From Candidatus Poribacteria bacterium (GTDB taxonomy: Bacteria > Poribacteria > WGA-4E > WGA-3G): DNA of 64,000 nucleotides. Position 1 is the first letter of the stretch. The number at the start of each line of letters is the position of its first letter. Shown here piece after piece: positions 948 to 48,941 of this stretch. A model generated the notes under the pieces. The model searched no databases. It had not been told where the DNA came from and saw only the letters and a program-made list of their open reading frames with translations. The stretch covers positions 32,001 through 96,000 of the forward strand of contig CAXXUA010000004.1 in the NCBI GenBank assembly GCA_963663765.2, written 5' to 3'. The position numbers were made by a program, and so were the translations under genes.

Positions 948-950
948 ACC

Positions 951-21428: not shown

Positions 21429-21559
21429 GACGACTAAAGTTATGTGCTTCTTTGAAACTCATAACTCTCCTCTGTGTGATTCCTGCTTCCGTCTCTCGTG
21501 CCTCTATCCTGAACTGCGTGAGGTCTTATTCGGACTCCACAAGCGTTTATGCTCTCTGT

Positions 21560-22635: not shown

Positions 22636-22655
22636 ACCTGACTCCTGATAAGATG

Positions 22656-22709
22656 CTGACCCCCTCGTCAAAGGTGTGGCAGGTGTTGACGCACCTACCA
22701 CAGAGTCAG
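22656..22709 (-). promoter_or_regulatory. Structured 5' leader of tnpB copy 1 (three-way junction with loop-loop pairing)
   Basis: CTGACTC/GGGTCAG stem, TGTGGTAGGTG/CACCTGCCACA stem with loop CGTCAA complementary to downstream TTGACG; lies between a TTGATA-N18-TATAAT promoter (22717-22746) and the CAGGAG RBS. Confidence 0.65.
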
Positions 22710-22762
22710 TCTTATTATTATACCACAACTTTAGGGAAAATATCAAGCGTTTTTTGACCCGA

Positions 22763-23149
22763 GGGTGGGTAAAGTTTTTGTAGAAACCCTATTATTATAG
22801 TGGATTTTAGAATTATTTTTTGCACTATCAGGTGTAGGAGGGAACTCCGATTCCCGACTATCAAGGCGTTCAGTCGCGATTCGGAGATCGAAATCAAGTA
22901 ATCAACGGTATGAATACCTTATGGTATTCCCCGGGTATGAATGCCTATTGGCATTCCCCGCCTACAGAAAAAGTGTAAACTTAATTGTATATTTCACTAT
23001 AAAAGAAGTATCTAAAGTTTCTATCAAAGTTTGCTTCACGTAAGGGAACTGTGGACATCGTAGGGGCGAGGTTTCCTCGCCTGCGTAATACCTTTGCTCG
23101 GGCAGGGAGTCCCCGCCCCTACACACAGTAACCAAAACTTTACACACCC
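22763..23149. mobile_element. MITE with GGGTG(T/G)GTAAAGTTTT TIRs and 9-bp TSD TTGACCCGA; nested cargo
   Basis: TSD at 22754-22762 and 23150-23158; interior holds a TATAGTG...CACTATA-bounded element (22796-23001) and two REP doublets. Confidence 0.85.
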
Positions 23150-23259
23150 TTGACCCGAAGCTAAAGGCTTGGGATTGTCATTTAATTCCCTTCATCTGTT
23201 TTTTCGGACTAATATGGATATTGATTACTACATATCTTGAATTGAGGGTTGCAAATTAT

Positions 23260-23382
23260 CAGGACTTACGCAGTTTTCTTGATTTAATCATAAATTATGA
23301 CGAAAATGATGCCGTTATCAGCGTTTTTATGGGTTTCCGGCGCGCTTACAAAGCACGCCTACCGTTGTGTGCGTAAGTCCTG
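23260..23382. mobile_element. 123-bp MITE, TIR CAGGACTTACGCA, 5-bp TSD ATTAT
   Basis: Perfect 13-bp TIRs; near-identical to 45947-46069; carries the REP GGCGCGCTTACAAAGCACGCCTAC. Confidence 0.9.
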
Positions 23383-24126
23383 ATTATATTCGATCAGTTC
23401 TGTAATACCTTCATCATCTTCTATTCTTACAATGCCAATATTTGGAACAAACCAAATCAACTTAGTATCAATAACTGTTTCCTCATTTGATAAAACTAAA
23501 TGAGTTATATCTGTTTCATATTGTATCTGAAATGCATTCTCAAATGTTCCTGCAGATGTATGAATAACATTTTGATCAAGCACTTTACAATGAACGTTAA
23601 TATGGACATCAAACGCAAACTGAAGAAGAACAAGGTCCTGCAAAATGAGGTTACCGGTGATATTAGTATTTAATGCATCCCATTGAGAATTCAGTGTTAA
23701 AGGAGTATGCAAAAAAAGGAGTTCAGGGTACAACTCTGTATCAGAATTCACACTTATTTCTAATCCTGTGAATTCATCCTCAACAACTTTTGGCAGTCCA
23801 TTTTGAAGATAATTATTAATTCTTTCATCTACTCTGAAAAAAACCTGATTCTGAGTAACACGAAAAGAGGAAGGGATAAGAATATCCAATTCGTTACCAG
23901 TCATTTCTGGTATAAAATCAATTTTCTGAAATAAGATGTTGTTTGTAGTTATATCATCTGCGACTGACCACGTCCATAGCAACTCATCAGGAGTTTGATA
24001 GACCCATCTCGTTCCAACTGCATCGGGGAAGTAGTTTGGTTTAAATTCAGTAGGTTCAGGATCCTTATCAGAACTGCATGCAACAAACATTGTAATGCAG
24101 TATATCGTTAAAAGAAAAAACCTCAT
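23359..24126 (-). CDS. Hypothetical lipoprotein (stop codon supplied by a MITE)
   Basis: Lipobox FVAC; NYFP..VG.RWVY, T.AGTF, WFVPNIGIVR beta-barrel-type motifs. Confidence 0.75.
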   Translation of the reverse strand: MRFFLLTIYCITMFVACSSDKDPEPTEFKPNYFPDAVGTRWVYQTPDELLWTWSVADDITTNNILFQKIDFIPEMTGNELDILIPSSFRVTQNQVFFRVDERINNYLQNGLPKVVEDEFTGLEISVNSDTELYPELLFLHTPLTLNSQWDALNTNITGNLILQDLVLLQFAFDVHINVHCKVLDQNVIHTSAGTFENAFQIQYETDITHLVLSNEETVIDTKLIWFVPNIGIVRIEDDEGITELIEYNQDLRTQR

Positions 24127-24182
24127 TTTATGCCTTGATGAATTGAGATTATTATAGGAATGCTATGACGGTGAACAAGTGA

Positions 24183-24212
24183 TTATAGGCGCGGGTTGAG
24201 ACGCGCCTATAA
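24183..24212. terminator. Hairpin downstream of redoxin gene
   Basis: ATTATAGGCGCG...CGCGCCTATAAT inverted repeat. Confidence 0.5.
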
Positions 24213-24223
24213 TTGGCAATATA

Positions 24224-25549
24224 CTATTCTGCTGATTCTTCCTTCAAAGCTTCAGCAACCAATTTCTCTAAATTACTCCTTGCATTATTTGAGATCAGTT
24301 TACCCTCTTTGTCTATGAGCCACACTGTCGGAATCCCAAAAATACCATACTTTCGTGATACAGGACTATTCCAACCTTTACCGCTATAGACTTGTCTCCA
24401 AGCAATATCGTTCTTTTTGAGATATTCCCTGAGTTTAGTTTCATCAGAATCAAGACTAATACCAACGATATCAAACCCTTTGTCTTTGTAGGTATCATAT
24501 ACCTTTTTAACTTTAGGCATGTCTGCGATGCAGGGACCACACCAAGTCGCCCAGAAATCAACTAAGAGAACTTTACCGCGATATGCTTCAATGGATATCG
24601 GTTTTCCTTCAAGATCTGTTGCTTCAAAATCGGGAACCATTTTGCCAAGAAACGCCAACCCAGGAACATACTTTTTACGGTATTCTAAAGCCAATTCATC
24701 GTTACCACGTTGCTTATGAATACTCTCAAGCCTTTGTAGGACAAAACGATTTTGGGGTTCATGTTTTTCAAGTTCTTGAAATAGTTGTAGTTCTTCATCA
24801 AACCGATTCAATGCTTTAAGCATATCTCCTAACACGGCACCATGATAATAGTTCTTAGGATCCATCTGTGATTTGAATCGCTTCATCAAGTTCTCAGCAT
24901 CTTCCATGCGTTCTGCTTTCATATAGAGTTGATGAAGCGTAGCATAGAGTCTATAAACCCGTTGAATATCGGTCTTTTTCTTTAATACCTTATCCAATGC
25001 TTGAATTGCAGGTTCAACACCACCATATACTTTTTCAAGTGAATTCTGCCATGAATATGGTGCGCGATACACTTTGTTTTCAAAACTCAGACTTAACATT
25101 GAATAAGAGGGGTTATTATTTTCATTATGATGTATACAACGTACAAGAGGCGTTACATCACCTAACAAATCACGTGCACTCATGACTGAATTCCGCAATT
25201 GTGGTGCTAACTGATAGTCATAACTCACAGGTTTATTTGGATCTTTTGTGAGTGGATGTAAGGTTTTTCCTCCATTCTTGTCTGCAGGACACAACAGAAC
25301 TTTCTCGTCTGCTAAGTATTTTGGAACAAGGTCTGATAACCATTTAGGATAATCACCATGTTCCTTATGGTAGGCTTGAATTGCTTTGCCTACTGTTTCC
25401 AGATTGTGTGTACAAATCTCTATGTTCTTCTTTTTCATGTTCTTTTTTTCTACTGGATCAACGTCTGAACTTTTATCAGAATCGTCTTCCGCATATACAG
25501 AAGGAATCATCAAACACAACAGAATTCCAATGGTTAGAATGACTTTCAT
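24224..25549 (-). CDS. Exported TlpA/redoxin-domain protein with TPR-like region
   Basis: Signal peptide; C-terminal GKVLLVDFWATWCGPC...GIPTVWLIDKEGK thioredoxin fold. Confidence 0.88.
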   Translation of the reverse strand: MKVILTIGILLCLMIPSVYAEDDSDKSSDVDPVEKKNMKKKNIEICTHNLETVGKAIQAYHKEHGDYPKWLSDLVPKYLADEKVLLCPADKNGGKTLHPLTKDPNKPVSYDYQLAPQLRNSVMSARDLLGDVTPLVRCIHHNENNNPSYSMLSLSFENKVYRAPYSWQNSLEKVYGGVEPAIQALDKVLKKKTDIQRVYRLYATLHQLYMKAERMEDAENLMKRFKSQMDPKNYYHGAVLGDMLKALNRFDEELQLFQELEKHEPQNRFVLQRLESIHKQRGNDELALEYRKKYVPGLAFLGKMVPDFEATDLEGKPISIEAYRGKVLLVDFWATWCGPCIADMPKVKKVYDTYKDKGFDIVGISLDSDETKLREYLKKNDIAWRQVYSGKGWNSPVSRKYGIFGIPTVWLIDKEGKLISNNARSNLEKLVAEALKEESAE

Positions 25550-25660
25550 TTTTATCTCCTTGTTGAGTTAATTGAATATTTTATTGTTAACGTTAGTTTT
25601 TTATAGTCAAATTTATATAATTATGTTCGGTGATGAAAACGCACCTACCAGAGTTTTTGG

Positions 25661-27004
25661 TTATAGTAATAGTTCACGAACATAAACTGCGATAAAGAAT
25701 ACTGCGAAATAGTGGACGAGAGGATTCACCTCTTTCCTACGTCCAGTGACAAGCTTTAAAAATGACATAGAAATAAAACCGAATGCGATTCCTTCTGTAA
25801 TACTGAAAGCAAGAGGCATCATTAATACAGTCAAAGCAGCGGGTATTGCTTCAGTGAAATCTTCCCAATTTATGTTGATAAGGTCTTTAAGCATCAACCC
25901 ACCCACAACAACTAATGCGGGACCAATTATAGGATAAAGTGGAATTGGACTTCCTTGTTGTATAAATCCACCCCCAACAATTTTTGCTAAAGGTGTAAAA
26001 AACATTGCACACAACATGAGCAGACCTGTAACAATTGCAGTCAATCCTGTTCGTCCCCCCTCAGCAATGCCAGAAGCACTTTCAATATAACACGTAACTG
26101 TTGAGGTGCCAAGACATGCCCCACCTACGGAACCAACTGCATCTGACAAAAGTGCTTGTCTGCCTTTTGATAATTTTCCATCCTCCATCAAGTCTGCCTC
26201 ATAACCAGTAGCAGTTAGTGTGCCGATGCTATCAAACATATCCACTGCAAAGAAGAAAAATATATAAGGTATAAGTTCCATCAACTTTGAAGGACTTGGG
26301 AACCGTAATTTTAGAAAAGTAGGTTCGATTGAGGAAGGCATAGAAACAATACCCTCAAATTTTGCAATTCCAAAAATAAGTGCGACAATTCCAGTTGCAA
26401 GTATCCCCATCAACATAGCACCCTTCACCCGGTGTGCCATCAATGTAATTATTACTAACAATCCGAAAATTGAGACCAAGACAGGTTTAGATTGGATATT
26501 TCCAAGTTTTACAAATGTATCCGGATCTGCAGTGATAATCCCACACATCCGTAAACCGATAAACGCGATAAAAACGCCAATTCCTACAGCAATAGCGTTT
26601 TGGAGTGAAGATGGCAGTGCATTCATAACTGCAGCACGTAAACCGACGAAGGAAAGAATGACAAACAGCATTCCCGATATGAAAACAATACCTAAAGCGA
26701 ATTGCCAGTCAAGACCAAGTCCACGTTCTTTTGATACAATCTCATAAACAAAATATGTATTTATTCCCATACCCGGTGCAAGTGCAACCGGATAGTTCGC
26801 AAGAAATGCCATCAAAAAAGTTGCAAAAGCACTTGAGACACATGTTGCAACCAATACAGCATCTGGATCCATACCTGCTTGACCCAGAAAATAAGGTTGT
26901 ACAAAGATAATATATGAAAGTGTCATAAAGGTTGTACAACCTGCGACAATCTCTCTTCGTATACTTGTCCCGTGTTCTTTTAAACGAAATAATTTTTCTA
27001 ACAC
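25661..27004 (-). CDS. NCS2 family (AzgA/PbuG-like) purine permease
   Basis: REIVAG.TTFMTLSYIIFVQP, APGMG.N, DMFDSIGTL, YIESASG..EGGRTGLT. Confidence 0.92.
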   Translation of the reverse strand: MLEKLFRLKEHGTSIRREIVAGCTTFMTLSYIIFVQPYFLGQAGMDPDAVLVATCVSSAFATFLMAFLANYPVALAPGMGINTYFVYEIVSKERGLGLDWQFALGIVFISGMLFVILSFVGLRAAVMNALPSSLQNAIAVGIGVFIAFIGLRMCGIITADPDTFVKLGNIQSKPVLVSIFGLLVIITLMAHRVKGAMLMGILATGIVALIFGIAKFEGIVSMPSSIEPTFLKLRFPSPSKLMELIPYIFFFFAVDMFDSIGTLTATGYEADLMEDGKLSKGRQALLSDAVGSVGGACLGTSTVTCYIESASGIAEGGRTGLTAIVTGLLMLCAMFFTPLAKIVGGGFIQQGSPIPLYPIIGPALVVVGGLMLKDLININWEDFTEAIPAALTVLMMPLAFSITEGIAFGFISMSFLKLVTGRRKEVNPLVHYFAVFFIAVYVRELLL

Positions 27005-27166
27005 AATTCCCCCTAAAATATGAATCGCTAATTACAATTAACAATCAATCATGTCTTGAAAATACACATATTATCCAAATACTCTATCAAGTAACTAGGA
27101 ATTTAAAACCTACATTAGTATATTTCTATTCATAGATATAACCCAGATTAGCATGCTTGTCAAGTA

Positions 27167-28795
27167 CTACTTGTCTAAAACAATATGTACTTCCGCATTC
27201 GCACCCTCTTCACCAACAAATAGATTTGCGGTTATCGGTCCAAGTGACTCCAATGGAAATAGATTATCTTGGATTTGCTGCATTAATTGAGCATCCAGTT
27301 TTATACCAGAAAATGATGCAAGAATCGTAACTAATGGGATGAACCTTTTTATTTCAGGTACTAACAGTTGCGGTTGAACATAAGTCTGAATACCATTAGA
27401 CGCAAATGTTATGTCTTCTAAATTAGGAGAGTCTCCAGAATTCGTATCAAGTACAGTTTTTAACCCATCCAATGTCGTACTTAAAAATAGATCGTTATTC
27501 ACAATTGCATAAGCACCAGTATACGACATTAGGATATTTAAACGCATTCGAAGAGGATGTAAAGAAATTCCTTTATAGTTTTGCACTTCAAGGAACTCAA
27601 TAGGCCTTCCCGCAACAGAAAATTTTGTGTTATTAAGTTTTTTTATGTTTTCATCAAGAGATTTTATGTTTTGAATTGGGGTATGTATCACTAACGAAGG
27701 TAATTTTGACATTTCACCTTCATTACGAGAAACTATAGCAGCAGTCATTTCGGGTTTAAAAATGTCATAAAAACTTACATCATCTGATTCAATTTCAATT
27801 GTTAATAGAGAAGTTAATACTTGCCAAAACTGAGTCCAATTATGCTGTGGATAGAATGCAACTAAAGCGGTATGTTTAGGAATAAATGTTGGTGTGGTTC
27901 GCGGTTTTGAATGTGGGTTTTTTGGTGATTCGTGATTTCCAAACTGATATTTTGAAACTACCGCACCTTCTTCATACCGATTCTCAAATGTCCAAAACTT
28001 TCCTTCGTTAATCATAGAAGATAAATGACCAGAAATATTATCATTTTCATCTGCTAGATGTTTTAACAACACAGAAAAGCGTGGAAGGTCCACATATCCA
28101 GTGTTTGTATTGTCATTATAACTTTTCTGTATATGTTTTTTAATGGAATGTTTAGTAAGAAAACCTTCATTTTTATCATTATATATGTCTATTACTTCTG
28201 CTAAAAGCAAGGGATTAAGGGTTAACACTCCTATTTTTCCGATAAAGGTATAACTAAAATCAAGTGGATATCCAATTATGGTATTGATAGTTAGACCGTT
28301 GTGTTCTGTCTTAATTCGTTTATAGTTAGGGTTTATTAGATCTGTCGCTGTGATTGCTTCAATGGCAAGCTTTTCTGGTCCACCTACTTCTGTAATAAGT
28401 AGAAATGAGAACTCATTTTCACGTTGATAGAGTGCAAGAATTACTTCCTTACCAAAATGACCTTTAACTGCTCGCATATCAAATCTTCCACCCATTTCGT
28501 ATTCCCAGAGCATTTTCTGATATACAATCTGACGCCACCAAAGTTTAGATCCTATTTGCTTGAATATAGGCATCTGTTTGACCTGCTTACCAAATTCACT
28601 CTCATTAAATGCCTTAACAAGTCCATCCAAATCCTTCAATGTCAAATAACATATTGGAGATTCTGGGAGTAATGTGATAAGACTATGTTCAGGTTTCCAA
28701 AGTGAAGTTTGATGATAAACAACAGTTAACAATAGAATGATACCAACCAATACAATTAGTAGGGTGAAGATGAATCTTTTCTTTGACTTTTGCAT
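27167..28795 (-). CDS. Hypothetical membrane-anchored protein (DUF3352-like)
   Basis: N-terminal TM anchor, LLPE...Y pattern, YAIVNNDLFLST; family assignment weak. Confidence 0.55.
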   Translation of the reverse strand: MQKSKKRFIFTLLIVLVGIILLLTVVYHQTSLWKPEHSLITLLPESPICYLTLKDLDGLVKAFNESEFGKQVKQMPIFKQIGSKLWWRQIVYQKMLWEYEMGGRFDMRAVKGHFGKEVILALYQRENEFSFLLITEVGGPEKLAIEAITATDLINPNYKRIKTEHNGLTINTIIGYPLDFSYTFIGKIGVLTLNPLLLAEVIDIYNDKNEGFLTKHSIKKHIQKSYNDNTNTGYVDLPRFSVLLKHLADENDNISGHLSSMINEGKFWTFENRYEEGAVVSKYQFGNHESPKNPHSKPRTTPTFIPKHTALVAFYPQHNWTQFWQVLTSLLTIEIESDDVSFYDIFKPEMTAAIVSRNEGEMSKLPSLVIHTPIQNIKSLDENIKKLNNTKFSVAGRPIEFLEVQNYKGISLHPLRMRLNILMSYTGAYAIVNNDLFLSTTLDGLKTVLDTNSGDSPNLEDITFASNGIQTYVQPQLLVPEIKRFIPLVTILASFSGIKLDAQLMQQIQDNLFPLESLGPITANLFVGEEGANAEVHIVLDK

Positions 28796-29019
28796 AATGG
28801 TAGAAAACAGCTTTTGTGCGTCAATTTGCTATCATCGTTTAGTATAACATTATTATGGATATAATACAATAGGACTTATTTTAAGGCCAGGGTTATTTAG
28901 ATTTCAATTTATTGATATTATTTTGCTGTTTCGTTAATTTTATGGGATACCATCTTGTCTAGTTCTTTAGTCCCGTATGAAGATTAATTTATGAATAGGG
29001 TAATAAATATTTTTCAGAT

Positions 29020-30091: not shown

Positions 30092-30253
30092 GGTAAATCA
30101 AGAAATCAACGGTATGAATGCCATTTAGGCATTCCCCGCCTACCGTTGGGTGCGCAAGTCCTGATATAACAAAACATAAGCAAACAACAAGAACAGTATG
30201 CAAAACCAAATATTGCGAAGAAATTGCAATGTTTTTGCAACAAATAACTGGAA

Positions 30254-34237: not shown

Positions 34238-34283
34238 AAATTGCTATTTCTCACACATGATAGTGAATTGGAAAAGAACGTTA

Positions 34284-43200: not shown

Positions 43201-44477
43201 TCAATCCATTCATGGCCAGTGTAAATTTCAGCTAAAATGATATGTGTTGCCGGATTATTAGGAGAACGGTCAATCATTCTTTGATAGACGGTTGTTGCTT
43301 TATCTGGATTGCCAATCTGCAGATACAACTCTCCAAGTTCTCGGTAAATACCGAAATCATCAGGGGATTGTTCGCTGAGTACTTCGTATTCTGCTGCTGC
43401 ATCTTGAAACTTTTCAATGTTTCGGAGTGTGGCGATAAGATTAAGTCGCAGATTTGTATCAGTAGGTGCAAGATCAATGCCCTTTCTGTAAGTGCTGATA
43501 CCTTCATCAATCTGCTGGTTTTCTATATATGCAGCTGCCAGCAAACCGAACAGTTCAGGTTCATTTGGGGTTGCATCAAGTTTATCTTGATAGAATTTTA
43601 TGAGATCTTCCCAATTTCCATCTGCTGCAAAAATACCGATGATACGGTGTTGTAGGTCTTTACGTAGCCAATTTCCCGGTGCTGTCAACGACAAAGCAGT
43701 ATCAAAACTCTTTATTGCTGCCTGAAAGTCACCTTTCACTTCTTGTATGATACCTATTTCTCGGTGACTCAGACAGATCCTGTATATATCATCCTCTCTC
43801 AATTTAATTATTGCTTCATATTGTGAAATTGCCTGCGAAAAAAGTTCTTGTTCACGGAATAGGTCAGCAATATCAATACGTGCAAAAATGTCATCAGGAT
43901 CAAGTTCAGTAATCTTCTTCCATGCCTGAATTGCTTCATCTACCTTGTCACGCGCAAAATATGCATGTCCAAGTGCTTTATATATGTCTGTTAACTCTTC
44001 TGGAGCAACATTTTGTGCCTGTTCAGATAATTTTGATGCAGTTGTTAATGCTTTGATCGCGTCTTCATGCTGACGCAATGTAGCATAGAACTTACCCAAA
44101 GCAAAATGTGGATAGTAATTTTCTGGTTTGAGTTCAACAGCACGTTGGTATACTTTAACTGCTTGGGTGTCCTTACCAAGACGTTTATATATGTGTCCTA
44201 AAATGAGTTGGAGGTTTGAGTCGTCAGGTTTTTCATTTGCTTCTGTCAGATAATCGTTTAGCATTGCATCTAATCCTGCACCTTCAAGGTAAAACTGATA
44301 GACGCGATCAAAAGTACTTCCATCTTTGGGTTTTTGATATAATATCTGTTTATAACGTTCAATGATTTTCTCATCACTGGTAACATCTTGTGCTATAGAT
44401 ATTGTATTCGCTGTGAGCATTAGGACAATAAGAAACATAAAACTATAGATAACTGATCTTTTTTCTCGTTCAAGCAT
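34284..44477 (-). CDS. Giant secreted TPR-repeat protein with LamG domain and two C-terminal carbohydrate-binding-like domains (3397 aa)
   Basis: Signal peptide; dozens of TPR motifs; LamG WTHIAGV...FVGQIDEVRIWN; duplicated W..LGPFDNT...DDQ..WLNGE domain. Confidence 0.88.
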   Translation of the reverse strand: MLEREKRSVIYSFMFLIVLMLTANTISIAQDVTSDEKIIERYKQILYQKPKDGSTFDRVYQFYLEGAGLDAMLNDYLTEANEKPDDSNLQLILGHIYKRLGKDTQAVKVYQRAVELKPENYYPHFALGKFYATLRQHEDAIKALTTASKLSEQAQNVAPEELTDIYKALGHAYFARDKVDEAIQAWKKITELDPDDIFARIDIADLFREQELFSQAISQYEAIIKLREDDIYRICLSHREIGIIQEVKGDFQAAIKSFDTALSLTAPGNWLRKDLQHRIIGIFAADGNWEDLIKFYQDKLDATPNEPELFGLLAAAYIENQQIDEGISTYRKGIDLAPTDTNLRLNLIATLRNIEKFQDAAAEYEVLSEQSPDDFGIYRELGELYLQIGNPDKATTVYQRMIDRSPNNPATHIILAEIYTGHEWIDDAVAQYEKAISLAPNNLDYIEYYGDFYFRQGNREKALETWNQMVEGKRAIGANYDRLAQLFKAKHFNTEAVAAIRKAVELMPDEYKYRETLAKHLIESGDYDAALTEYTAAMELAPNAFFAEKMDDKRIELYRRQGTLQEKIEELETKLDKSEIASDQNFLYQKQIAKMYLKLGNITHALEVLLNAKKLKPNDVGVNRWLAKVYNRQGRRDDANSIYLQLIEIDSANAREYHANIAKSYLDILDYESATTAAKQVIANSPRNPEGHQLLAQIAKQAKNYDAAIDSLKQAIRLRPEMIDTRTELAKVYKLSGKLQEALSQYWRCWNLSEDIHDKLTFVKPLAEVYYDLGRQGEFEEKLKQLAKSNTAWVAPVLALAELHRMEGDLPSARFQLAQGLNKQRENPELLFKLVEISSELGDIQDALTYQQRLVKVDPDPTHQQKLGELLFDAGREQEAIQAWTKLLHAKNQTLEAEVKLAALLLRHGLSEEAFFVLERASEKISGTDAHLPLYRLGVLLVGMNEPDRAQTYFHRILDMSESAENTTKQATRYSEIYNYSYIPGITFNKFEISQGTISEIQSRSTFAGGNVQWIPKTFEEAQVGALVHLVSIAQQLGKLSELIQHFEDVVQANPTDVKALETLARFYTLIQQKDKAETAINKLIDISPNDLAYQPLRLQLLLKDDLNYASVKKAIDDIPGLVPTVRARYFAEYAAILYTEDKKEDATRLLEEIEEENHTDLSVSSKLVGAFLLSKRTDIAEQILLNLPTPPQKQHREYRLIFEEITDAYIEQEATEKALDVFWTFLERTNPNTINPRRVASLAQSSYSYYGYYNPVQSNFPVPTAYFNIERLNYLRSIFREVWIRNKQEILFEKLQKELDIANGRDRVYPGLALSYCYWWDEKRDKAQQILTTLHNDFPDDLTLKLNIAYISIQSGQYKIALTMLEDLAESEPRNRRQYNDLILQLAIHTGDAITLREVMNNLMNSPISPQELYEFSITLQESGFTQFAIATAKKAMTLAMTQRNPNFLLDLGDHLADLGRGQDAAILAERALRFANSPDQYGRMMSTWSFQQANSLVGTVKERKNRETKIIEDAQNNPTSFNAQLKLAMFYEGTNKIQKASEAFKSVLNLRPKEINIRLRYVQMLERSGKAKDAIPHYKVLLKSDSSILGYNYENAIDAFVHSDKLDELIALTKEIIQPVGRYYGDEFTIAVARRCLAEKRTKESIELFEKILEVQPNRNYQYQELATIYAKNDEPEKAIQYLTEMFEQDKTGMTQSSFEIKISEFHETASGPDKAIQYMREKIENNDISDINVTYIQRLSNLYKKKDELEQLITEYETILNDDPSNATLLYIVARMKLMAEDIDGASIHVNQLIENHHSSVNTQWLYNLANASDGHDLQTQILEAAARKLKQENSWSVVSCYNRLGEAYAANGELEKAQTAFRKMGNFQLMRNNNTDIYERRRLASTYMKYQMWDDAETILAGIINDLSADWWDRDNAQRMYIDTIQKRGDLSSRKQMVEQTQTMSIHMQRAIATELVGLGQVARAISIYERIAKSTPEDFESRSELARLYTRLNLHEKASNTWTSLLDSDPENTKFQDGLVNSHVSAGKIKEAYELCQEYIQSEPESSVHYVRLAKLYIDEDKVDEAISNYEKALEYAAGNRQIHLNMADLYLRKDNMEAAENAYKKAIQFTTSQWDRENTEANLINLYRYQGKLEEMLQKAEDEGTITAVMQREQAQIYEKKGDLHKSVDAFKKALDLTTDSYDRERITSELLDVYVKLDDTDSVFEIFDNNIASGSPYRSSNSSNATMTYKSKEEQAREELVSSYNSAGKLDKLRILYENKLNDEPENTDFLELLAEIYLGGQNYKAAAEVYQKLIKLQPENITNFYAAGNAFTNSGQQGLAQEMFREAEKVFENNKINDMWFLGSLASISFEHKQFESAIKYAKYAIDKSSSYSSSSIVDILSELLAKCYKETEQHEEAVNIYQQLANSARNSSTRSRAKTAMTELAKTTKLYEKWIPKYLEKIKRNPNDANTRQTLAETYESTEQTALAVEQYEKISELQLYNPQWQKKLGDLYQKLPTEKRKTVKVIEDTALTLSGNRDFVEIHDSEVLDSLTEQVTLSLWMNPTGFSNNYIPIIFRGDEWDPGFKLRSYVLQLINDGGIQFASSPQDVHDIPIYAPAGTIKLNTWTHIAGVIDAKNNYIKLFINGNEVSHNNYNGQKSIHKSTLPLRIGWTHENKHPLHGSFVGQIDEVRIWNIARTQKQIRVDMDTPLNGDEDGLVGYWKFDVEKDEQILDTTPNNNHGKLIGDAKLESYERPIFETINSDVLTKAISAYQKAIELEPTTYQNYDLLAKTYMKMDQMSDAETVYRQALDAPLSQSSHDSAITALVGIFADEQHKEKRLAILEEIQPKMLKSAVLHDLLGNIYNELGDTEKAEQAFTQWLKIRQKQVYNSDYEYYYRTFAEELLEKGLFPKTAHTFAKRAVQTFTGTSYYYPAVLAETCVANQLYDDAIKYYKLAFSIVSNEYSYERIWDRIIDSSKYADDKKRFEQMLDEVLDTFTDESSTSRANGYRKIAHYYSNKGKKANAIEYTMKAGLVPETNWITLGPFDNTDAYGVQNAYIKEETTQIDPSAQYYGKGELISWKKSTYRSLDGHYVFTGDTESSSSYVWAVVVSPDDRDIVIKFDSDDQGAIWLNGEYVFNHDRTGAARIDRYTINTTLNQGENTILVKICNGSSDYDFYFRITDVDGIPYDDLHYKSADALLNTPPPPEPTFHVNVNLGWAEYYEKNDMHDKAIEQIRQTGIIHEEQWLVLGPFDNTASIGYDTAYIPEDITQIDRSAEYVGIDGKVSWQKHSDDAFNGLIDFGRNEDWRVSYAWTTVTSPVEREVQLRIGTDDQAKVWLNGEQVYTFETGRWVVVDKDIVPVTLKAGKNTILIKVCNEQLTWGFYMRFTDENGKPFDDLQYIDVSDDQ

Positions 44478-44535
44478 TCAGAAGTCTCCATGTAAGAAAA
44501 GATGATAGGATGAATCGGACTCATTTATGTGGTCT

Positions 44536-45504
44536 TTATATTTCAGATGGACGAACTATGTCCGGATTTATACCGTAGTATTTTATAAGGTCTTGAAATG
44601 GATCATAAAAATAGTCTTTGACATTTGGAGAAAATACAATAGTTTTGAGTAATGCCTGTAAGTCATTTTCCAGTGAAATTCCTTTTTTCGGTATGTCTTT
44701 CATTAGATTGGTATCATATCTACTAAAGAATGGGACATCTTCCCTTGACAGTAGATCACTATAATAAGGTATTTTCTTAGATGTGTAGATAACGCCATGC
44801 AGATATTCTTCACAAATAGTTTCAAATGAAATGATTGCTCTAACCTCATTTTCTTCTTGATATATATTTCTTTTATGCAAAATTGGAGCGTAAAATAGTT
44901 TGAATAGGTTATCAGGATTATTTAAGTCTATTGATGGAAAATCTTCATATCCTTCAATATCTTCTTTTTCATAGTCCTTATATTTTATCTCACCTATATG
45001 GAATTGATAATTGGTAGATGCAAAACTTTTGATTAGATCGCCAATTGTCGTTTGAATGGCAATGGCTGTAGGACTACTATTTTCCCCATATCCCGCCCAC
45101 ATTGTATGGCTTTCATTTTCTTTTAGAAACCAGCTATTACAAAACATGAGATGGTTTGAAAAAAGTTGTAATAATGTTTCAAATGAGTGAAGAGTATTTA
45201 ATAATTCTTTTACTCTGTGTTCTGTGTGAAATTCTTCAGCATCCTCTATAAATCTTTTCATTCTTCGGAATGCTTCATCTTGTTTTATTGGTGTGTTTTC
45301 TTCATTTAATAAGTCTGTCTTATAGACTTCTTCTTTAGATTTTTCAGATAGTGTTCCCTCCTTTTTATCACTAAATATGGAGATGTTAGGAAAATAAAGT
45401 GAATTATTTTTGAGCATTGCCATAAATTTTTCTATTGACATGTACCTCCATATTTTTTTGTGTGCGCATGGGGTGTCAAAATGCGGACTATTTTGATAAG
45501 GCAT
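44536..45504 (-). CDS. DUF2971-like hypothetical protein
   Basis: IWRYMS..KF, LYF....F.D..EG, CNSW....ES..MW..Y, KR..Y..ENEVR motifs. Confidence 0.65.
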   Translation of the reverse strand: MPYQNSPHFDTPCAHKKIWRYMSIEKFMAMLKNNSLYFPNISIFSDKKEGTLSEKSKEEVYKTDLLNEENTPIKQDEAFRRMKRFIEDAEEFHTEHRVKELLNTLHSFETLLQLFSNHLMFCNSWFLKENESHTMWAGYGENSSPTAIAIQTTIGDLIKSFASTNYQFHIGEIKYKDYEKEDIEGYEDFPSIDLNNPDNLFKLFYAPILHKRNIYQEENEVRAIISFETICEEYLHGVIYTSKKIPYYSDLLSREDVPFFSRYDTNLMKDIPKKGISLENDLQALLKTIVFSPNVKDYFYDPFQDLIKYYGINPDIVRPSEI

Positions 45505-45574
45505 TTGTATATTTGGCTGGTTAGTATAATCCTTTTCGAACTTTTTGCTTAATTCGTAATTTGCGTTTTAACGT

Positions 45575-45913
45575 CTAAATTTGATCATTAAGCAGTGGTC
45601 TAAGATGTGTAATCAATCGATTTTCTATATCAAAACGTGATTCTGAAGGTAGAGGCACATAAACAGCGATAGCATTCATACCTAGCTTGAGAGCTTCCTC
45701 CCATTTTTCATGACCTGGGTTCAATCGTGTCCTAAAACCCTCGGTCTGTCCAATATATAAAAATTGATGTTGATTCTTACCACCGGCATCAGGTATGCCT
45801 TTTGAAAAAATATAGACACCGGATGCATTGTAGATAGGTCCCTCTAAATCATATACTACAAATGGGTATGAATCATTGTCTGTATTGACAGTCATTGGTC
45901 CTATCCTTGCCAT
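45575..45913 (-). CDS. Small GIY-YIG nuclease-like protein
   Basis: GVYIF...LYIGQT...RL..H...E..LI...P.LN; AAGGAG RBS. Confidence 0.7.
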   Translation of the reverse strand: MARIGPMTVNTDNDSYPFVVYDLEGPIYNASGVYIFSKGIPDAGGKNQHQFLYIGQTEGFRTRLNPGHEKWEEALKLGMNAIAVYVPLPSESRFDIENRLITHLRPLLNDQI

Positions 45914-45946
45914 TTTTTATCTCCTTAAGGTTTAATTGTTTTAGGA

Positions 45947-46069
45947 CAGGACTTACGCAGTTTTCTTGATTTAATCAAAAATTATGATGAAAATGATGCC
46001 ATTATCAGCGTTTTTATGGGTTTCCGGCGCGCTTACAAAGCACGCCTACCGTTGTGTGCGTAAGTCCTG
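45947..46069. mobile_element. 123-bp MITE, TIR CAGGACTTACGCA, 5-bp TSD TAGGA
   Basis: Perfect TIRs and TSD; near-identical to 23260-23382. Confidence 0.9.
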
Positions 46070-46125
46070 TAGGAATCAAAGCATTTAACAATCCTTTAAT
46101 CTCACGGATTCGTTGAAGGGTCTAT

Positions 46126-46953
46126 TTAGGTAGCAGCAAGAACATTATCCATGATCTCTTGCCATCTACCCTCATATTTTTCACCGAATTCTTTTTCACC
46201 ACCAGTGGCTAATGGTCCAGTAATCATAGGCTTTGATGCGTTGTTTCGTTCCCAAAGTTGCTTCCCACCGAAGTCGTTATGTATAAAGTGCAAAGCAATC
46301 CCTGCTCGTTCCTTATCAGACAAATTCGATCTGGTGCAGTGGGCAACACCATAACAAAAGAAGAGCACGCCACCAGCCTTTAATTCAATCGGTACAGCAC
46401 GTTCTTCAGGTGGATCACAGCGAATATGGTGGTCGCTCAAGGGGTCACGGTAGTGTTCATAACTTTCACGGTGACTACCGGGGATAACATGCATACAGCC
46501 GTTTTCAACTTTTGCATCGTGGATCGCAACCCACATAGCACATCCACGCAATGGGTCCGAAATTTTAAAGTAAGCGTTATCCTGATGCCAACTAGTACCG
46601 ATACCGATTTTCGGTGGTTTCCAAAACGCTTGATCCAATTGTAACATGAATCCATCACCGATAAGTTGCTTGACAGTGGAAACAACGTTGGGATGAAAAG
46701 GTAAAACTTTGTGTAAATCACTGCGGTTATTTAGCGGAATGACCTGCAAGTTTTGTCGTTCACCTTCGTTGTCACGTTTTGTGCCATCTTCCTGCACAGC
46801 ACAATTGATGCCAGTACCTTTCTCCAATTCAGTATTGTATATCCGCTCCAATTCAAGACGAAGTGCTTTTGCTTCAACTGACGAGAAAAAATCATCAATT
46901 GCTAAATACCCATTTTCTCTAAATTCAGCAAGTTGTTTTTCTGTTAATTGCAT
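46126..46953 (-). CDS. Phytanoyl-CoA dioxygenase (PhyH) family protein
   Basis: WHQD (HxD), NGCMHVIPGSH, AHCTRSN, R motifs. Confidence 0.9.
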   Translation of the reverse strand: MQLTEKQLAEFRENGYLAIDDFFSSVEAKALRLELERIYNTELEKGTGINCAVQEDGTKRDNEGERQNLQVIPLNNRSDLHKVLPFHPNVVSTVKQLIGDGFMLQLDQAFWKPPKIGIGTSWHQDNAYFKISDPLRGCAMWVAIHDAKVENGCMHVIPGSHRESYEHYRDPLSDHHIRCDPPEERAVPIELKAGGVLFFCYGVAHCTRSNLSDKERAGIALHFIHNDFGGKQLWERNNASKPMITGPLATGGEKEFGEKYEGRWQEIMDNVLAAT

Positions 46954-46994
46954 ATCAATGTGTTTATCCTATTTAAATATGATTGGTAAGTGCT

Positions 46995-47170
46995 CTGACA
47001 TACTCCCCAAGCTAAAGCATGGGTGTTCTCAGTTCTTATATTGGAAACGGTTTGAGTTGTTTCCAAACGACTTTTCCTGCTTCCGTGTCTCGTGCCCTTT
47101 CCTGAACAGCGTTGGGTCTTATTTGCACTCCACAAGCGTGACTTTCGGTGTGCCCCACCGTAGTTGGTTT
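46995..47170 (-). ncRNA. Predicted omega/reRNA scaffold overlapping the tnpB 3' end
   Basis: Established TnpB biology plus sequence conservation with 21418-21560 beyond the catalytic region; 5' boundary approximate. Confidence 0.5.
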
Positions 47171-48226
47171 CAAGTTTATGGCAGCGTTGACATCTCTATC
47201 TATAGACATATCACATTGACTGCAGTGATACATTCTTTCTGAAAGTGTAAGGTCTTTCTTTTTGTGTCCACAACCGGAACAGGTTTTACTACTTGCAAAG
47301 AACTGATCTGCTTCTTTGACAGGTATACCGCGCACTTCCGCTTTTGTCTTGAGTTTTAGCAGGAAACCGCCTAATGCTGAATCTGACAATACTTTTGCGA
47401 GGTTTCTGTTCTTCAGCATATTAGTAACCTTGAGTGTCTCAATACCGATCGCAGCGGCACGGTTGACAATCTCTGTAGTTGCTTTGTGATGTGCGTCGTT
47501 TCGGATACAAGCGATACGATAGTGGATACGTTGTAACTCGTGTTTCTGCTTGAACCAGTTTTTAGACTTGAAAACACGACGGCTCAACTTGCGTTGTTCT
47601 CTCTTTAGCTTCCGCTCATAACGTTTTAGCGGTCGGGGATTATCATATTTCGTGCCATTACTCAAGGTGGCAAGTGTGTTGATGCCTACATCTACACCAA
47701 TCACAGGGTGCGTTGAATTATCAACTGCTTCGGTGTCCTCTGTTTCTACGGTGATAGATACAAACCAACGATGTGCTGTCCTTGAGATCGTCACTTTCAT
47801 AATCTTACCCACAAAACGCAATGATTCAAACATTCTAATCCAACCAATCTTAGGAAGTTTGATACGCTTGCCTTCAACTTCCACAGATTGATTATTTGTG
47901 GTGAATGCATCCTTTTTACCACGCTTCTTGAACTTCGGAAACTTTGCACGTTTACCAACCCAATTCGCAAGCGCAGCCGATAAGTTGCCAAATATGCTTT
48001 TGTTGGCTACAACCTGATCCATATCTTTTGTCCAAGCATGTTCTTTCTTAGCAACATTAAACCGCTTGTTTAACTTAGCAGCTGATAAGAACTCATCATT
48101 TGCCAATGCAGACTTGAAATCTGCTAATGCATGATTATATGCAAATCTCGCATAGCCACACTGTTGTGCAAACCAATTGCGTTGATTGTAATTTGGATTC
48201 AATGCAATCTTATGTGTTTTTAGCAT
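47036..48226 (-). CDS. tnpB: TnpB RNA-guided endonuclease
   Basis: HTH N-terminus, RuvC D (IGVDVG), E (IETL), D (DRDVNAAINL), Zn finger CSGC..CSQC. Confidence 0.93.
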   Translation of the reverse strand: MLKTHKIALNPNYNQRNWFAQQCGYARFAYNHALADFKSALANDEFLSAAKLNKRFNVAKKEHAWTKDMDQVVANKSIFGNLSAALANWVGKRAKFPKFKKRGKKDAFTTNNQSVEVEGKRIKLPKIGWIRMFESLRFVGKIMKVTISRTAHRWFVSITVETEDTEAVDNSTHPVIGVDVGINTLATLSNGTKYDNPRPLKRYERKLKREQRKLSRRVFKSKNWFKQKHELQRIHYRIACIRNDAHHKATTEIVNRAAAIGIETLKVTNMLKNRNLAKVLSDSALGGFLLKLKTKAEVRGIPVKEADQFFASSKTCSGCGHKKKDLTLSERMYHCSQCDMSIDRDVNAAINLKPTTVGHTESHACGVQIRPNAVQERARDTEAGKVVWKQLKPFPI

Positions 48227-48253
48227 GATGATATTCCAGTCCTATGAAGATGT

Positions 48254-48305
48254 CAGTTCCCTCTACTAAAGCTGTGTAGGTGTTAGTAGCACCTACACTG
48301 AACTG
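48254..48305 (-). promoter_or_regulatory. Structured 5' leader of tnpB copy 2 (three-way junction with loop-loop pairing)
   Basis: CAGTTC/GAACTG stem, GTGTAGGTG/CACCTACAC stem with loop CTACTAA complementary to downstream TTAGTAG; lies after a TTGATT-N17-GATACT promoter (48314-48342). Confidence 0.65.
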
Positions 48306-48941
48306 CTATAATGAGTATCTCATGTTTTAAACCAAAAATCAAGTGTTTTCTTGACACAAGCACTTAGCACGACTACATCCCACTACCTAAAGGTAGGGGT
48401 TTTGTCGTGATTCTTGATAAAAAGCAAATTGTGAAGACGTAAACAAACACACCATCAACAGTGAGTGGTATCAGATGTGTAAAATAATTGTATCACATCT
48501 CAAAACTGTTTGCTATATATATTTTTTGATACGGGTGTGTAAAGTGTTTATACAAAACAAAATTTTAGTGTGTCTTTGGATTTTTTACAAATGTTCTATC
48601 CATAATCTTTCCACATCCTAAATATACAACAGGAACATTCTATTCTCCAGTAGTACTTTTTCCCTACTAATTTGACTGGCTAAATGTTTCATAGCATTGC
48701 CTAATGTTCCAGAATTACAGAAAAAAGACAAGAATATAATCGACAGAATTGTTTGCTCTTCAAACAAATTAATTTTTCTCATTTTTTATTTGACAATAAA
48801 ATTAAAACAATGTAAATTAGCCATAATAAGTAACTAAACAAGCCGATTATCGTTAATTATAATTATCGTCTTAACATGGCATTTTATTTTTGTATTTTAA
48901 ATGTCTATGACAATTCAATTTTGTTGGAGATAAATTAATAT

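What the first reader, a model, noticed from the sequence alone, without database searches (positions are those of the whole stretch)
22656..48305. Covarying three-way-junction/kissing-loop RNA leader upstream of both tnpB genes
Seen (minus strand): copy 1 (22656-22709) is P1 CTGACTC/GGGTCAG, P2 TGTGGTAGGTG-[CGTCAA]-CACCTGCCACA, P3 CCT-[TTGACG]-AGG. Copy 2 (48254-48305) is P1 CAGTTC/GAACTG, P2 GTGTAGGTG-[CTACTAA]-CACCTACAC, then CT-[TTAGTAG]-AG. The loops differ between copies yet each is perfectly complementary to its partner, which is compensatory covariation. Each structure begins ~7-8 nt after a sigma70-like -10 box and ends just before the RBS. Established: the known TnpB RNA (omega/reRNA) comes from the 3' right end, not here. 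Inference: a second structured RNA that controls tnpB translation or stability, or an antisense-RNA target. The GGTGC-N3/4-AACACC loop recalls symE-type leaders (from memory, unverified).
Basis: partly seen in the sequence, partly recalled or inferred. Interest (0 to 1): 0.75.

Follow-up and report, generated by a model that had tools for sequence, protein, structure and literature searches.

The report
Covarying leader RNA before tnpB genes
The start of the messenger RNA of a transposon nuclease gene (tnpB) in sponge-symbiont bacteria folds into a conserved, previously undescribed structure that looks like a switch able to hide the ribosome landing site, and it carries two matching loops that probably let copies of the RNA pair with one another.

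Summary
Both window copies have the three-way junction (P1, P2, P3) with complementary P2 and P3 loops, at the stated coordinates. The structure lies in the 5' leader of IS200/IS605-type tnpB genes, right after a conserved promoter-like site.

A covariance model found the structure in 47 of 151 Poribacteria genomes. On 96 distinct leaders all four helices covary, with 0 of 500 shuffles reaching the observed values. There are 28 different loop/loop pairs. G-U pairs outnumber A-C 115 to 17, so the sense strand folds.

New here:
- The 5' strand of P1 (alpha) is complementary to two direct repeats. Beta closes the junction. Gamma lies over the ribosome-binding region. All three covary, and the two states are nearly isoenergetic.
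- P2 (10 bp) and P3 (3 bp) are 1 nt apart, so the loops cannot kiss within one molecule. I infer pairing between molecules.
- A second, differently built tnpB leader in a sister genus has the same two features.

There is no Rfam match, and my paper searches found no description. The transcription start is not mapped and nothing has been tested at the bench. I read it as a new translational-control leader, with possible dosage sensing through RNA-RNA pairing.

The parts
46995..48416 (-). Family-A IS200/IS605-type element (tnpB only). The genome holds 19 full-length copies at 96-100% identity.
   Evidence: Ends set by aligning the 19 copies. The left end follows TTAT in 19 of 19. The right end is ...GGGGAGTATGTCAG. 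Copy count.
48417..48420 (-). TTAT flank next to the left end: insertion target and likely TAM
   Evidence: Present in 19 of 19 copies. No duplication at the right end.
48379..48399 (-). Left-end subterminal hairpin CCCCTACC-TTTA-GGTAGTGGG, of the TnpA-recognised type. It is not part of the leader fold.
   Evidence: Sequence. The stem was also picked up by the scan. A matching right-end hairpin is seen.
48314..48342 (-). Promoter-like site TTGATT-17-GATACT, homologous to the conserved TTGAC-N17/18-TGnTATAAT of relatives
   Evidence: Position-wise conservation over 97 upstream regions. The -10 ends 7 nt before alpha, and A stands at -1 in 92 of 97. In this copy the match is 8 of 12, below the scan's threshold.
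48300..48306 (-). alpha: 5' strand of P1 (G/C)CAGTTC, at the predicted 5' end of the mRNA
48274..48298 (-). P2 hairpin GTGTAGGTG[CTACTAA]CACCTACAC. Loop L2 is 48283-48289.
48260..48272 (-). P3 mini-hairpin (C)CT[TTAGTAG]AG(G). Loop L3 is 48263-48269 and is fully complementary to L2.
48254..48259 (-). beta: 3' strand of P1, GAACTG
48236..48242 (-). gamma: second complement of alpha (GGACTGG), a direct repeat of beta, 9 nt before the ATG at 48226
47036..48226 (-). Intact tnpB, 396 aa (OrfB_IS605 + Cas12f-like TNB + HTH)
46995..47168 (-). Omega (guide) RNA scaffold, with its 5' end at 47168. Separate from the leader.
   Evidence: Contigs from RNA libraries in 4 runs of 2 studies. Sequencing-adapter letters follow directly at 47168 in X1, X2 and X3. 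One contig runs on 16 nt into another copy's flank.
22717..22746 (-). Copy 1 promoter-like site TTGATA-18-TATAAT (TG-extended)
22656..22709 (-). Copy 1 three-way junction: alpha 22709-22703; P2 22702-22675 (L2 CGTCAA 22691-22686); P3 22674-22663 (L3 TTGACG 22671-22666); beta 22662-22656
22638..22644 (-). Copy 1 gamma GAGTCAG, overlapping the AGGAG Shine-Dalgarno. The ATG is at 22635-22633.
21480..22635 (-). Copy 1 tnpB remnant: the frame is broken into ORFs 22516-22746, 22291-22506 and 21560-22411. The left-end hairpin is replaced by a genome-wide 38-nt repeat.

Best explanation
This is a cis-acting 5' leader of tnpB mRNA that sets how much TnpB protein is made.

Shown by comparison:
- A conserved sigma-70-type promoter with an extended -10 sits inside the transposon's left end. 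It places the RNA start 1-2 nt before a 7-nt strand, alpha.
- Alpha closes a three-way junction by pairing with beta. The junction holds P2 (10 bp, 6-7 nt loop) and P3 (3 bp, 6-7 nt loop).
- 10-12 nt downstream lies gamma, a direct repeat of beta. It overlaps the ribosome-binding region 5-9 nt before the start codon and is equally complementary to alpha.
- Alpha, beta and gamma change together in at least 20 variants. The two pairings come out nearly equal in energy.

Inferred:
- The leader toggles between alpha:beta, with the ribosome site free, and alpha:gamma, with the site masked.
- The P2 and P3 loops are always the same size and fully complementary, as in classical kissing hairpins. They sit 10 bp and 3 bp from a junction with a 1-nt spacer, so they cannot meet within one molecule.
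That would make expression depend on the amount of that subfamily's RNA, for example by favouring the masked state or by creating a long coaxial helix that a double-strand RNase could cut.

My confidence by part:
- About 0.9 that this is a selected sense-strand RNA structure.
- About 0.6 that it is a ribosome-site switch.
- About 0.4-0.5 that the loops pair between molecules.
For: - Covariation of P1, P2, P3 and the loop-loop helix on 96 distinct leaders: 92.1% of cells paired against 71.8% shuffled, 0 of 500 shuffles as high, 37-50% in slid controls. The same on a structure-blind alignment of 37 leaders.
- Loop-loop pairing: 75 of 96 rows have at least 6 contiguous Watson-Crick pairs, against 31 of 8446 non-self loop combinations. 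There are 28 distinct specificities.
- Alpha:gamma: 75 of 93 rows pair at 7 of 7 positions, at a fixed place, against 55 of 4032 for mismatched alpha/tail combinations. On the blind alignment 96.1% of cells pair and 5 of 7 pairs change on both sides.
- Where beta and gamma differ, both keep pairing with alpha through G-U. An example is alpha CTGTTTC with GAAACAG and GAAGCAG.
- Energy difference (alpha:gamma minus alpha:beta): median -1.0 kcal/mol over 87 leaders, and 35 of 87 lie within 1.5 kcal/mol.
- G-U 115 against A-C 17 in the nested helices, so the sense strand folds.
- The promoter is conserved over 97 upstream regions.
- Junction spacers are 1, 1 and 0 nt.
- No third copy of the loop words in the ORF or 3' end.
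- Predicted loop-loop duplex energy: median -7.0 kcal/mol per contact.
- L058 and L086 are 94% identical outside the loops, yet differ at 4 of 6 positions in each loop and both stay complementary.
- The same leader precedes TnpBs that are only 29-31% identical.
- A differently built leader in 62 of 151 genomes repeats both features. 31 of 32 have two tandem complements of the 5' strand just before the ATG, with 4 covarying variants. 26 of 32 have an exact 7-nt match between a P2 bulge and the P3 loop, with 14 variants. All 8 downstream proteins tested from that type are TnpB.
Against: - No transcription start is mapped. RNA-library contigs cover the leader at low depth and run on through the left end into flanking DNA. 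Read-through transcripts or DNA carry-over cannot be excluded.
- 21 of 96 leaders lack a full loop-loop match. Loss of the match does not track broken tnpB frames: 20 intact and matched, 8 broken and matched, 5 intact and unmatched. Some of those 5 are parsing slips.
- Many leaders have no clear Shine-Dalgarno in gamma, and a 7-bp helix is a modest block.
- The energy comparison ignores tertiary contacts and kinetics.
- Beta and gamma could be redundant rather than alternative partners.
- Pairing between molecules rests only on geometry. No tool here models it.
- In the second leader type the partner is a bulge, which could reach the P3 loop within one molecule.
- All data come from one phylum of related mobile elements, so the sequences are not independent.
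Confidence: 0.55

Rival explanations
1. One reading: one compact fold in which the P2 and P3 loops kiss within the same molecule. It would lock the junction and act as a static 5' stabiliser or a fixed translational brake.
For: Loop-loop covariation is as strong as for the stems. In the second leader type the P2 partner is a 7-nt bulge. P3 plus the loop helix (4 + 7 bp) is then about as long as the lower P2 stem (8-11 bp), which would allow closure within one molecule. A 5'-terminal helix is a known protection against 5'-end-dependent decay (general knowledge).
Against: In the type found in the window, P2 is 10 bp, P3 is 3 bp, and they are joined by one A. A loop-loop helix stacks on its stems, so the two stem bases would lie about 19 bp apart. 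An H-type pseudoknot would need about 4 nt to span a 10-bp stem, and would have to give up P3, which itself covaries. This picture also does not explain gamma.
Confidence: 0.2
2. The junction is a docking site for a protein, either TnpB itself (autoregulation) or a host factor such as a CsrA-like GGA binder. The loops and repeats would serve that binding.
For: The junction-proximal bases are nearly invariant (C-A-GUGG...CCAC-A-CC...GG-G). GGA-like motifs occur at the P3/beta border and near the start codon.
Against: The same leader serves TnpBs that are only 29-31% identical. Protein sites do not need 28 interchangeable complementary loop pairs.
Confidence: 0.1
3. The fold forms in single-stranded DNA of the transposon's top strand during TnpA-mediated excision or insertion, not in RNA.
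For: IS200/IS605 elements move as single strands and use hairpins (established). The folding strand is the one that carries the left-end and right-end hairpins.
Against: The TnpA-type hairpins are elsewhere, about 20 nt from each end. The fold starts 1-2 nt after a conserved promoter's predicted start and its alternative partner lies on the ribosome site. G-T pairs are frequent, 115 cells, and they are weaker in DNA. Miniature left-end + right-end derivatives lack the fold.
Confidence: 0.05
4. A small-molecule riboswitch: the junction is an aptamer, and alpha:beta against alpha:gamma is its expression platform.
For: A three-way junction with interacting loops plus an alternative P1 partner at the ribosome site is the layout of purine-type translational riboswitches (general knowledge).
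Against: Only about 2 unpaired junction nucleotides, so no pocket. The loops vary freely. No Rfam riboswitch hit. The gene context is always a transposon nuclease.
Confidence: 0.04
5. Target of a cis-encoded antisense RNA, as in IS10 or IS200.
For: Hairpin loops are typical entry points for antisense RNAs. IS200 uses both an antisense RNA and a 5' UTR stem (PMC4513863, abstract seen in a search listing).
Against: An antisense RNA is complementary by construction and gives no reason for L2 and L3 to match each other. G-U against A-C counts show that only the sense strand is under structural selection. I did not see a conserved opposite-strand promoter, but I did not search for one systematically.
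Confidence: 0.05

Closest known systems
   Same: Two loops in one RNA are complementary to each other and covary among relatives. They cannot pair within the molecule, so they join molecules.
   Different: pRNA is a phage packaging-motor part with 4-nt contacts that form rings. Here a bacterial mRNA leader carries 6-7 bp contacts and a ribosome-site switch.
HIV-1 5' leader monomer/dimer switch (PMC6534999 and PMC9010304, abstracts seen in the listing)
   Same: A 5' segment alternates between two partners. One of them covers the start-codon region, and the choice is coupled to a kissing-loop dimer.
   Different: The HIV-1 case has a single self-complementary loop and serves genome packaging in a eukaryotic virus. 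There is no homology.
IS200 tnpA 5' UTR stem-loop with art200, and IS10 RNA-IN/RNA-OUT (PMC4513863, abstract in listing; IS10 recalled)
   Same: The transposon limits its own protein through ribosome-site occlusion in the leader.
   Different: Those control the transposase and use an antisense RNA. They have no three-way junction, no repeated partner strands and no intramolecular loop complementarity.
hok/sok-type mRNAs with alternative 5' pairings (recalled)
   Same: A selfish element's mRNA in which the 5' end chooses between pairings that open or close the translation start.
   Different: The hok/sok case is a toxin-antitoxin system with a different fold, triggered by 3' processing and an antisense RNA.
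Omega RNA / Rfam IS605-orfB-I (RF03065; named in PMC11701678, passages read)
   Same: A structured RNA encoded by the same kind of element.
   Different: Omega RNA lies at the 3' end and guides TnpB. Here it is at 46995-47168. The leader gave no Rfam hit.
Guanidine-II riboswitch (PMC9300104, abstract in listing) and purine riboswitch (recalled)
   Same: Loop-loop contact between two hairpins is linked to access to the ribosome site.
   Different: Those have conserved loops with 2 C-G pairs or a ligand pocket. Here the loops are freely variable, 6-7 bp, with no ligand site.
Arc repressor of IS605 tnpB promoters (bioRxiv 10.64898/2026.09.24.754181, passages read)
   Same: Element-encoded restraint on tnpB expression.
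   Different: Arc is a protein that acts on DNA at the promoter. The elements here encode no arc gene and use an RNA fold.

Membership tests
IS200/IS605 family element (tnpB-only, IS1341-like) | TnpB with OrfB_IS605 (RuvC-like) and zinc-ribbon TNB domains | tested here: met
   PF01385 at 1.3e-29 and PF07282 at 4e-19
IS200/IS605 family element (tnpB-only, IS1341-like) | Subterminal hairpins at both ends, insertion next to a fixed short word, no target duplication | tested here: met
   Left-end and right-end hairpins with a TTTA loop. TTAT precedes the left end in 19 of 19 copies. The right-end flanks are unrelated.
IS200/IS605 family element (tnpB-only, IS1341-like) | Y1 (HUH) TnpA available, in cis or in trans | tested here: met
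   None in the element itself. The genome has 6 PF01797 matches over the family cut-off, 3 of them beside distant tnpB genes. Whether they act on these ends was not tested.
Omega RNA (TnpB guide RNA; Rfam IS605-orfB-I RF03065) | Lies at the 3' end of tnpB, running into the right end and the flank | tested here: not met
   The fold lies 5' of the ATG. A separate RNA with that position is seen at 46995-47168.
Omega RNA (TnpB guide RNA; Rfam IS605-orfB-I RF03065) | Match to the Rfam covariance model | tested here: not met
   0 hits at gathering score on the window. No such family among the 6 chance-level hits at E <= 10 on 4 loci.
Any Rfam 15 family (riboswitches, self-cleaving ribozymes, symR/symE-type, IS-linked RNAs) | Covariance-model score at or near the family's gathering score | tested here: not met
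   Only two chance hits overlap a leader: mir-3492 at 18.9 bits (gathering 44) and Alfamo_CPB at 14.6 bits (gathering 70).
Classical loop-loop kissing pair (TAR/TAR*, RNAI/RNAII type) | Two hairpin loops of equal size (6-7 nt), complementary over their whole length | tested here: met
   Loop strings 6/6 or 7/7 with full Watson-Crick match in 75 of 96 rows. P3 stem covaries.
Classical loop-loop kissing pair (TAR/TAR*, RNAI/RNAII type) | Physical formation of the complex, and whether it forms within or between molecules | not testable with these tools
   Only a geometric argument from stem lengths and the 1-nt spacer
Translational RNA switch by Shine-Dalgarno sequestration | Two mutually exclusive pairings, one covering the ribosome site, both conserved | tested here: met
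   Alpha:beta and alpha:gamma both covary. Median energy difference -1.0 kcal/mol.
Translational RNA switch by Shine-Dalgarno sequestration | Change of translation when the pairing changes | not testable with these tools
   Needs reporter or toeprint assays

The most novel reading that the evidence does not exclude
This pairing flips a register-shift switch (alpha:beta to alpha:gamma) that shuts translation. It would be an RNA-only copy-number sensor for an RNA-guided nuclease. New loop pairs would let a subfamily escape repression by resident copies, much as incompatibility groups arise in plasmids.
Probability: 0.25. Interest if true: 0.9.

Novelty: new variant of a known kind. Interest (0 to 1): 0.7.

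Why it matters
TnpB is the ancestor of Cas12 and one of the most abundant prokaryotic genes. How its expression is restrained in native hosts is largely unknown. The only element-encoded control I found in print is a protein, Arc, acting on the promoter.

This would be the first RNA leader described for tnpB. Its design is unusual: one 5' strand with two covarying partners, plus a self-complementary pair of loops that cannot meet within the molecule.

Two different architectures carry the same logic in front of TnpB clades as distant as about 30% identity. That argues for a general solution to a real problem, namely making much guide RNA but little nuclease from one transcript.

The element is short (about 95 nt), which gives RNA biologists a compact natural system for testing RNA dimerisation and bistable leaders. 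For genome-editing work it is a possible natural tuning module.

Tried and rejected
1. **Third partner for the loops.** I looked in the ORF, the omega RNA region and the right end. Exact 6-mers of L2 or L3 recur only at scattered places or not at all in 42 loci. Rejected.

2. **Rfam.** The window at gathering score gave 0 hits. Four loci at E <= 10 gave 6 chance-level hits.

3. **Does loss of loop complementarity go with broken tnpB frames?** No pattern in 33 loci: 20 intact and matched, 8 broken and matched, 5 intact and unmatched.

4. **Greedy stem/loop parser.** It over-extended stems through U-G pairs inside the loops and gave meaningless loop sizes. I dropped it and used the model's columns instead.

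5. **Fixed sum of P2 length and loop length,** which would fit a closed dimer. By eye the sum is 16 in some rows and 17 in others, so it is not fixed. Dropped.

6. **Transcription start from public RNA data.**
   - Only assembled contigs were available.
   - They cover the leader at low depth and continue upstream into other copies' flanks.
   - No start can be read.
   - One contig joint, 47165 to 48335 in X3, has only 22 letters on its shorter side. I left it uninterpreted.

7. **Spread beyond close relatives.** Of 80 metagenome loci encoding TnpB relatives at 31-81% identity, the model hit 9, all with TnpB at or above 69% identity. Four of those 9 (L144, L145, L150, L151) have a broken loop match.

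8. **Alternative hairpin formed by extending L2:L3 into its flanks.** The flanks are not complementary (read). Rejected.

9. **Promoter-like hit CTGACA-17-TATCAT at 48256-48228.** It would start inside the ORF and is not at a conserved site. Treated as chance.

11. **Paper searches.** Five searches found no description of a tnpB leader RNA. The library lacks most subscription journals and I opened no supplements, so an earlier description cannot be excluded.

Full report
**What is at the coordinates**

Copy 2 lies 28 nt upstream of an intact 396-aa gene at 47036-48226. The protein carries the OrfB_IS605, Cas12f-like TNB and HTH domains of TnpB.

Copy 1 lies before a tnpB whose frame is broken into three pieces.

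Folding either sequence alone is not convincing: z = -2.82 for copy 1 and -1.41 for copy 2. The test had to be comparative.

**The elements**

The window is part of a 6.35-Mb genome whose close relatives are Candidatus Poribacteria MAGs.

Copy 2 belongs to a tnpB-only IS200/IS605-type element:
- The genome holds 19 full-length copies at 96-100% identity.
- Aligning them sets the left end directly after TTAT in 19 of 19 copies.
- A subterminal hairpin lies about 20 nt inside the left end.
- The right end is ...GGGGAGTATGTCAG, after a similar hairpin, with no target duplication.
- In window coordinates the element is 46995-48416.

The finding's structure is therefore not the TnpA-type end hairpin. 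It lies about 110-165 nt inside the left end, in the tnpB leader.

Copy 1 is a decayed relative. Its left-end hairpin has been replaced by a 38-nt repeat that is common in the genome.

Y1 transposase genes exist elsewhere in the genome, next to distant tnpB paralogues.

**Covariation**

Other variants in the same genome already showed different but matching loops.

I built a covariance model of P1, P2 and P3 from 11 leaders:
- It matched 47 of 151 sampled genomes of the phylum: 45 of 99 in the window's family, 1 of 26 in a second family and none in seven others.
- I aligned 98 matches, of which 96 are distinct, from 38 earlier loci and 60 newly fetched regions.

On this alignment:
- 92.1% of cells pair against 71.8% after shuffling, and 0 of 500 shuffles reach the observed values.
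- Sliding the partners by 1-3 columns gives 37-50%.
- Pairs that change on both sides: 6 of 7 in P1, 10 of 11 in P2, 2 of 3 in P3 and 7 of 7 in the loop-loop helix.

Because that alignment was fitted to the model, I repeated the test blind. MAFFT + RNAalifold on 37 leaders returned the same junction, with 17 of 20 pairs compensated. I chose those 37 by eye for diversity and intactness, which is a selection bias. The loop-loop helix was 97.0% paired there, with 7 of 7 pairs changed on both sides.

By my own count:
- 75 of 96 leaders have at least 6 contiguous Watson-Crick pairs between the loops.
- Among combinations of one leader's L2 with another's L3, the figure is 31 of 8446.
- There are 28 distinct loop specificities.
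- In the nested helices G-U pairs number 115 and A-C only 17, so the sense strand is the one under structural selection.

The sequences are related mobile-element copies. The counts therefore overstate the number of independent events. The 28 loop variants and more than 20 P1 variants are the fairer measure.

The 5' strand of P1 (alpha) has two complements:
- Beta follows P3 directly and closes the junction.
- Gamma is a direct repeat of beta, 10-12 nt further on and 5-9 nt before the start codon.

In copy 1 gamma is GAGTCAG at 22644-22638, overlapping the AGGAG Shine-Dalgarno. In copy 2 it is GGACTGG at 48242-48236.

The evidence for alpha:gamma pairing:
- Across 93 leaders, alpha and gamma pair at 7 of 7 positions in 75, always at the same place.
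- For alpha strands tried on unrelated tails the figure is 55 of 4032.
- On the blind alignment alpha:gamma is 96.1% paired, with 5 of 7 pairs changed on both sides.
- Where beta and gamma differ from each other, both still pair with alpha through G-U. This speaks for selection on both pairings rather than on repeat identity.

Constrained folding of 87 leaders puts the two states within a median of 1.0 kcal/mol of each other. 35 of the 87 lie within 1.5 kcal/mol. That is what a bistable leader should look like, although the model ignores kinetics and tertiary contacts.

**Promoter and RNA start**

Over 97 upstream regions the consensus is an A-tract, then TTGAC(A/T), 17-18 nt, then TGnTATA(A/C)T:
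- The -10 ends 7 nt before alpha.
- A stands at -1 in 92 of 97.
- Copy 1 scores 11 of 12 with the TG extension.
- Copy 2's homologous site scores 8 of 12, below the scan's threshold.

Alpha would thus be at the very 5' end of the mRNA. This is a prediction.

Public RNA libraries from sponge metagenomes were held only as contigs. These cover the leader thinly and continue upstream into other copies' flanks, so no start can be read.

**Can the loops meet within one molecule?**

Pair 19-49 is unpaired in 82 of 96 rows. P2 is therefore 10 bp, flanked by single A residues. P3 is 3 bp and abuts beta with no spacer.

The loops are of equal size, 6 or 7 nt, and pair over their whole length. This is the geometry of classical kissing hairpins, in which the loop-loop helix stacks between the two stems.

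The bases of P2 and P3 would then lie about 19 bp apart, yet they are joined by one nucleotide.

An H-type pseudoknot would need about 4 nt to cross a 10-bp stem. It would also have to give up P3, which itself covaries.

I conclude, by inference from A-form geometry and not from a computation, that in this leader type the loops cannot pair in cis while P2 and P3 stand.

No third copy of the loop words exists in the ORF, the omega RNA region or the right end.

Points that fit this reading:
- A closed antiparallel dimer with two contacts is geometrically self-consistent.
- Each contact is predicted at a median of -7.0 kcal/mol.
- Loops can differ sharply between near-identical leaders. L058 and L086 are 94% identical elsewhere but differ at 4 of 6 positions in each loop, both still matched. 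That fits a specificity determinant. Only three such pairs were found.

**Breadth**

The same leader and left end precede TnpBs that are only 29-31% identical to the window's (L058 and L069).

Among 80 metagenome loci with TnpB relatives, the model hit 9, all with TnpB at or above 69% identity. Four of those 9 have a broken loop match.

Two loci at 54-56% identity had a different leader, which I followed up:
- It occurs in 62 of 151 genomes, and in 50 of 57 of a sister genus. It was not found in the window's own genome.
- It has a longer two-tier P2.
- In 31 of 32 examples the 5' strand (TATCAGG, TATCGTG, TATCACG or TATCAAG) is followed by two tandem complements ending 3-5 nt before the ATG.
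- In 26 of 32 an exact 7-nt match links a bulge in P2 with the P3 loop, in 14 variants.
- All 8 downstream proteins tested from this type are TnpB, from several clades.

Two architectures thus share the same two features. This raises my confidence that both features are functional. It also weakens the case for pairing between molecules a little, because a bulge could reach the P3 loop in cis.

**What it most likely does**

I read the leader as a translational control element. Alpha:beta leaves the ribosome site open and alpha:gamma masks it. The loop pair probably couples this choice to the concentration of like RNAs. Which state the pairing favours is open.

The transcript's 3' part yields the guide RNA:
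- RNA contigs show a discrete RNA from 47168 to the right end at 46995, running 16 nt into a flank.
- Letters that I recognise from memory as Illumina adapter follow directly at 47168 in three runs of two studies.
- Contig depths there are 140-5060, against 4-96 on the ORF and leader. The tool warns that contig depths are a poor measure.

A leader that keeps translation low would let one strong promoter make much guide RNA and little nuclease. This last step is my inference.

**Comparison with what is known, and novelty**

No Rfam family matches. That includes IS605-orfB-I (RF03065), which is in release 15.

Five full-text searches found no tnpB leader RNA. The related literature I saw concerns:
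- IStron ribozymes in tnpB 5' regions (PMC13565253, one passage);
- the Arc repressor protein (bioRxiv 10.64898/2026.09.24.754181, passages);
- IS200's 5' UTR stem and antisense RNA (PMC4513863, abstract in a listing).

The library lacks most subscription journals and I opened no supplements.

I rate the finding as a new variant of a known kind, namely transposon-encoded translational control by leader structure. Its parts are unusual, and the strongest reading, RNA-RNA dosage sensing, remains untested.

Noticed in passing
window 46995-47168 (-): An abundant small RNA matching the expected omega (guide) RNA of the family-A element. Its 5' end at 47168 is marked by adapter letters in 3 RNA runs. 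One contig continues 16 nt into a different copy's flank. This suggests the element is expressed in the sponge host.
   Followed up: partly
G000 C11:89712-89893 and C13:417314-417493: Miniature derivatives made of the left end (about 96-120 nt) joined to the last 54 nt of the right end. They have no tnpB, no leader and no omega scaffold (MITE/PATE-like).
   Followed up: partly
G000 C13:697697-697786 (family-A copy at C13:697530-699046): One family-A copy has an 88-nt insertion inside the leader, just after beta. The insert carries its own GC-rich hairpin and looks like another small mobile repeat.
   Followed up: no
window 22763-22800 (-): A 38-nt sequence directly upstream of copy 1 recurs at 87-96% identity at dozens of places in the genome (at least 33 listed). 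It replaces the left-end hairpin of copy 1. Its nature is unknown (REP- or MITE-like).
   Followed up: no
G000 C13:~155100-155350 and the flank of C5:634397 copy: A long GC-rich palindromic repeat (...GGTAGGAGCGACCTC...GAGGTCGCTCCTACC...) sits inside a truncated tnpB and next to another IS copy. It may be a further mobile palindrome.
   Followed up: no
L222-L251 (genomes of a sister genus), L149, L152: A second tnpB leader type with a two-tier P2. It has the same 'one 5' strand, two tandem complements' rule and a covarying bulge-to-loop match. It is present in 62 of 151 genomes and stands in front of several TnpB clades.
   Followed up: partly
L114 and L125 (leaders in relatives): Two leaders have identical words in L2 and L3 (TTGACG/TTGACG and TGACAC/TGACAC). 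This is as expected if the P2 half of one loop class recombined with the P3 half of the swapped class. Loop classes with the two words exchanged coexist in the window's genome (copy 1 against the B-type copies).
   Followed up: no
window 48228-48256 (-): Promoter-like match CTGACA-17-TATCAT inside the leader, ending 2 nt before the ATG. It is not conserved and is probably chance.
   Followed up: no
G000 C5:688634-688987, C3:287718-288071, C5:550867-551220: Y1 (HUH) transposase genes next to tnpB paralogues that are only about 29% identical to the window's. These are candidate helpers that could move the tnpB-only elements in trans.
   Followed up: no
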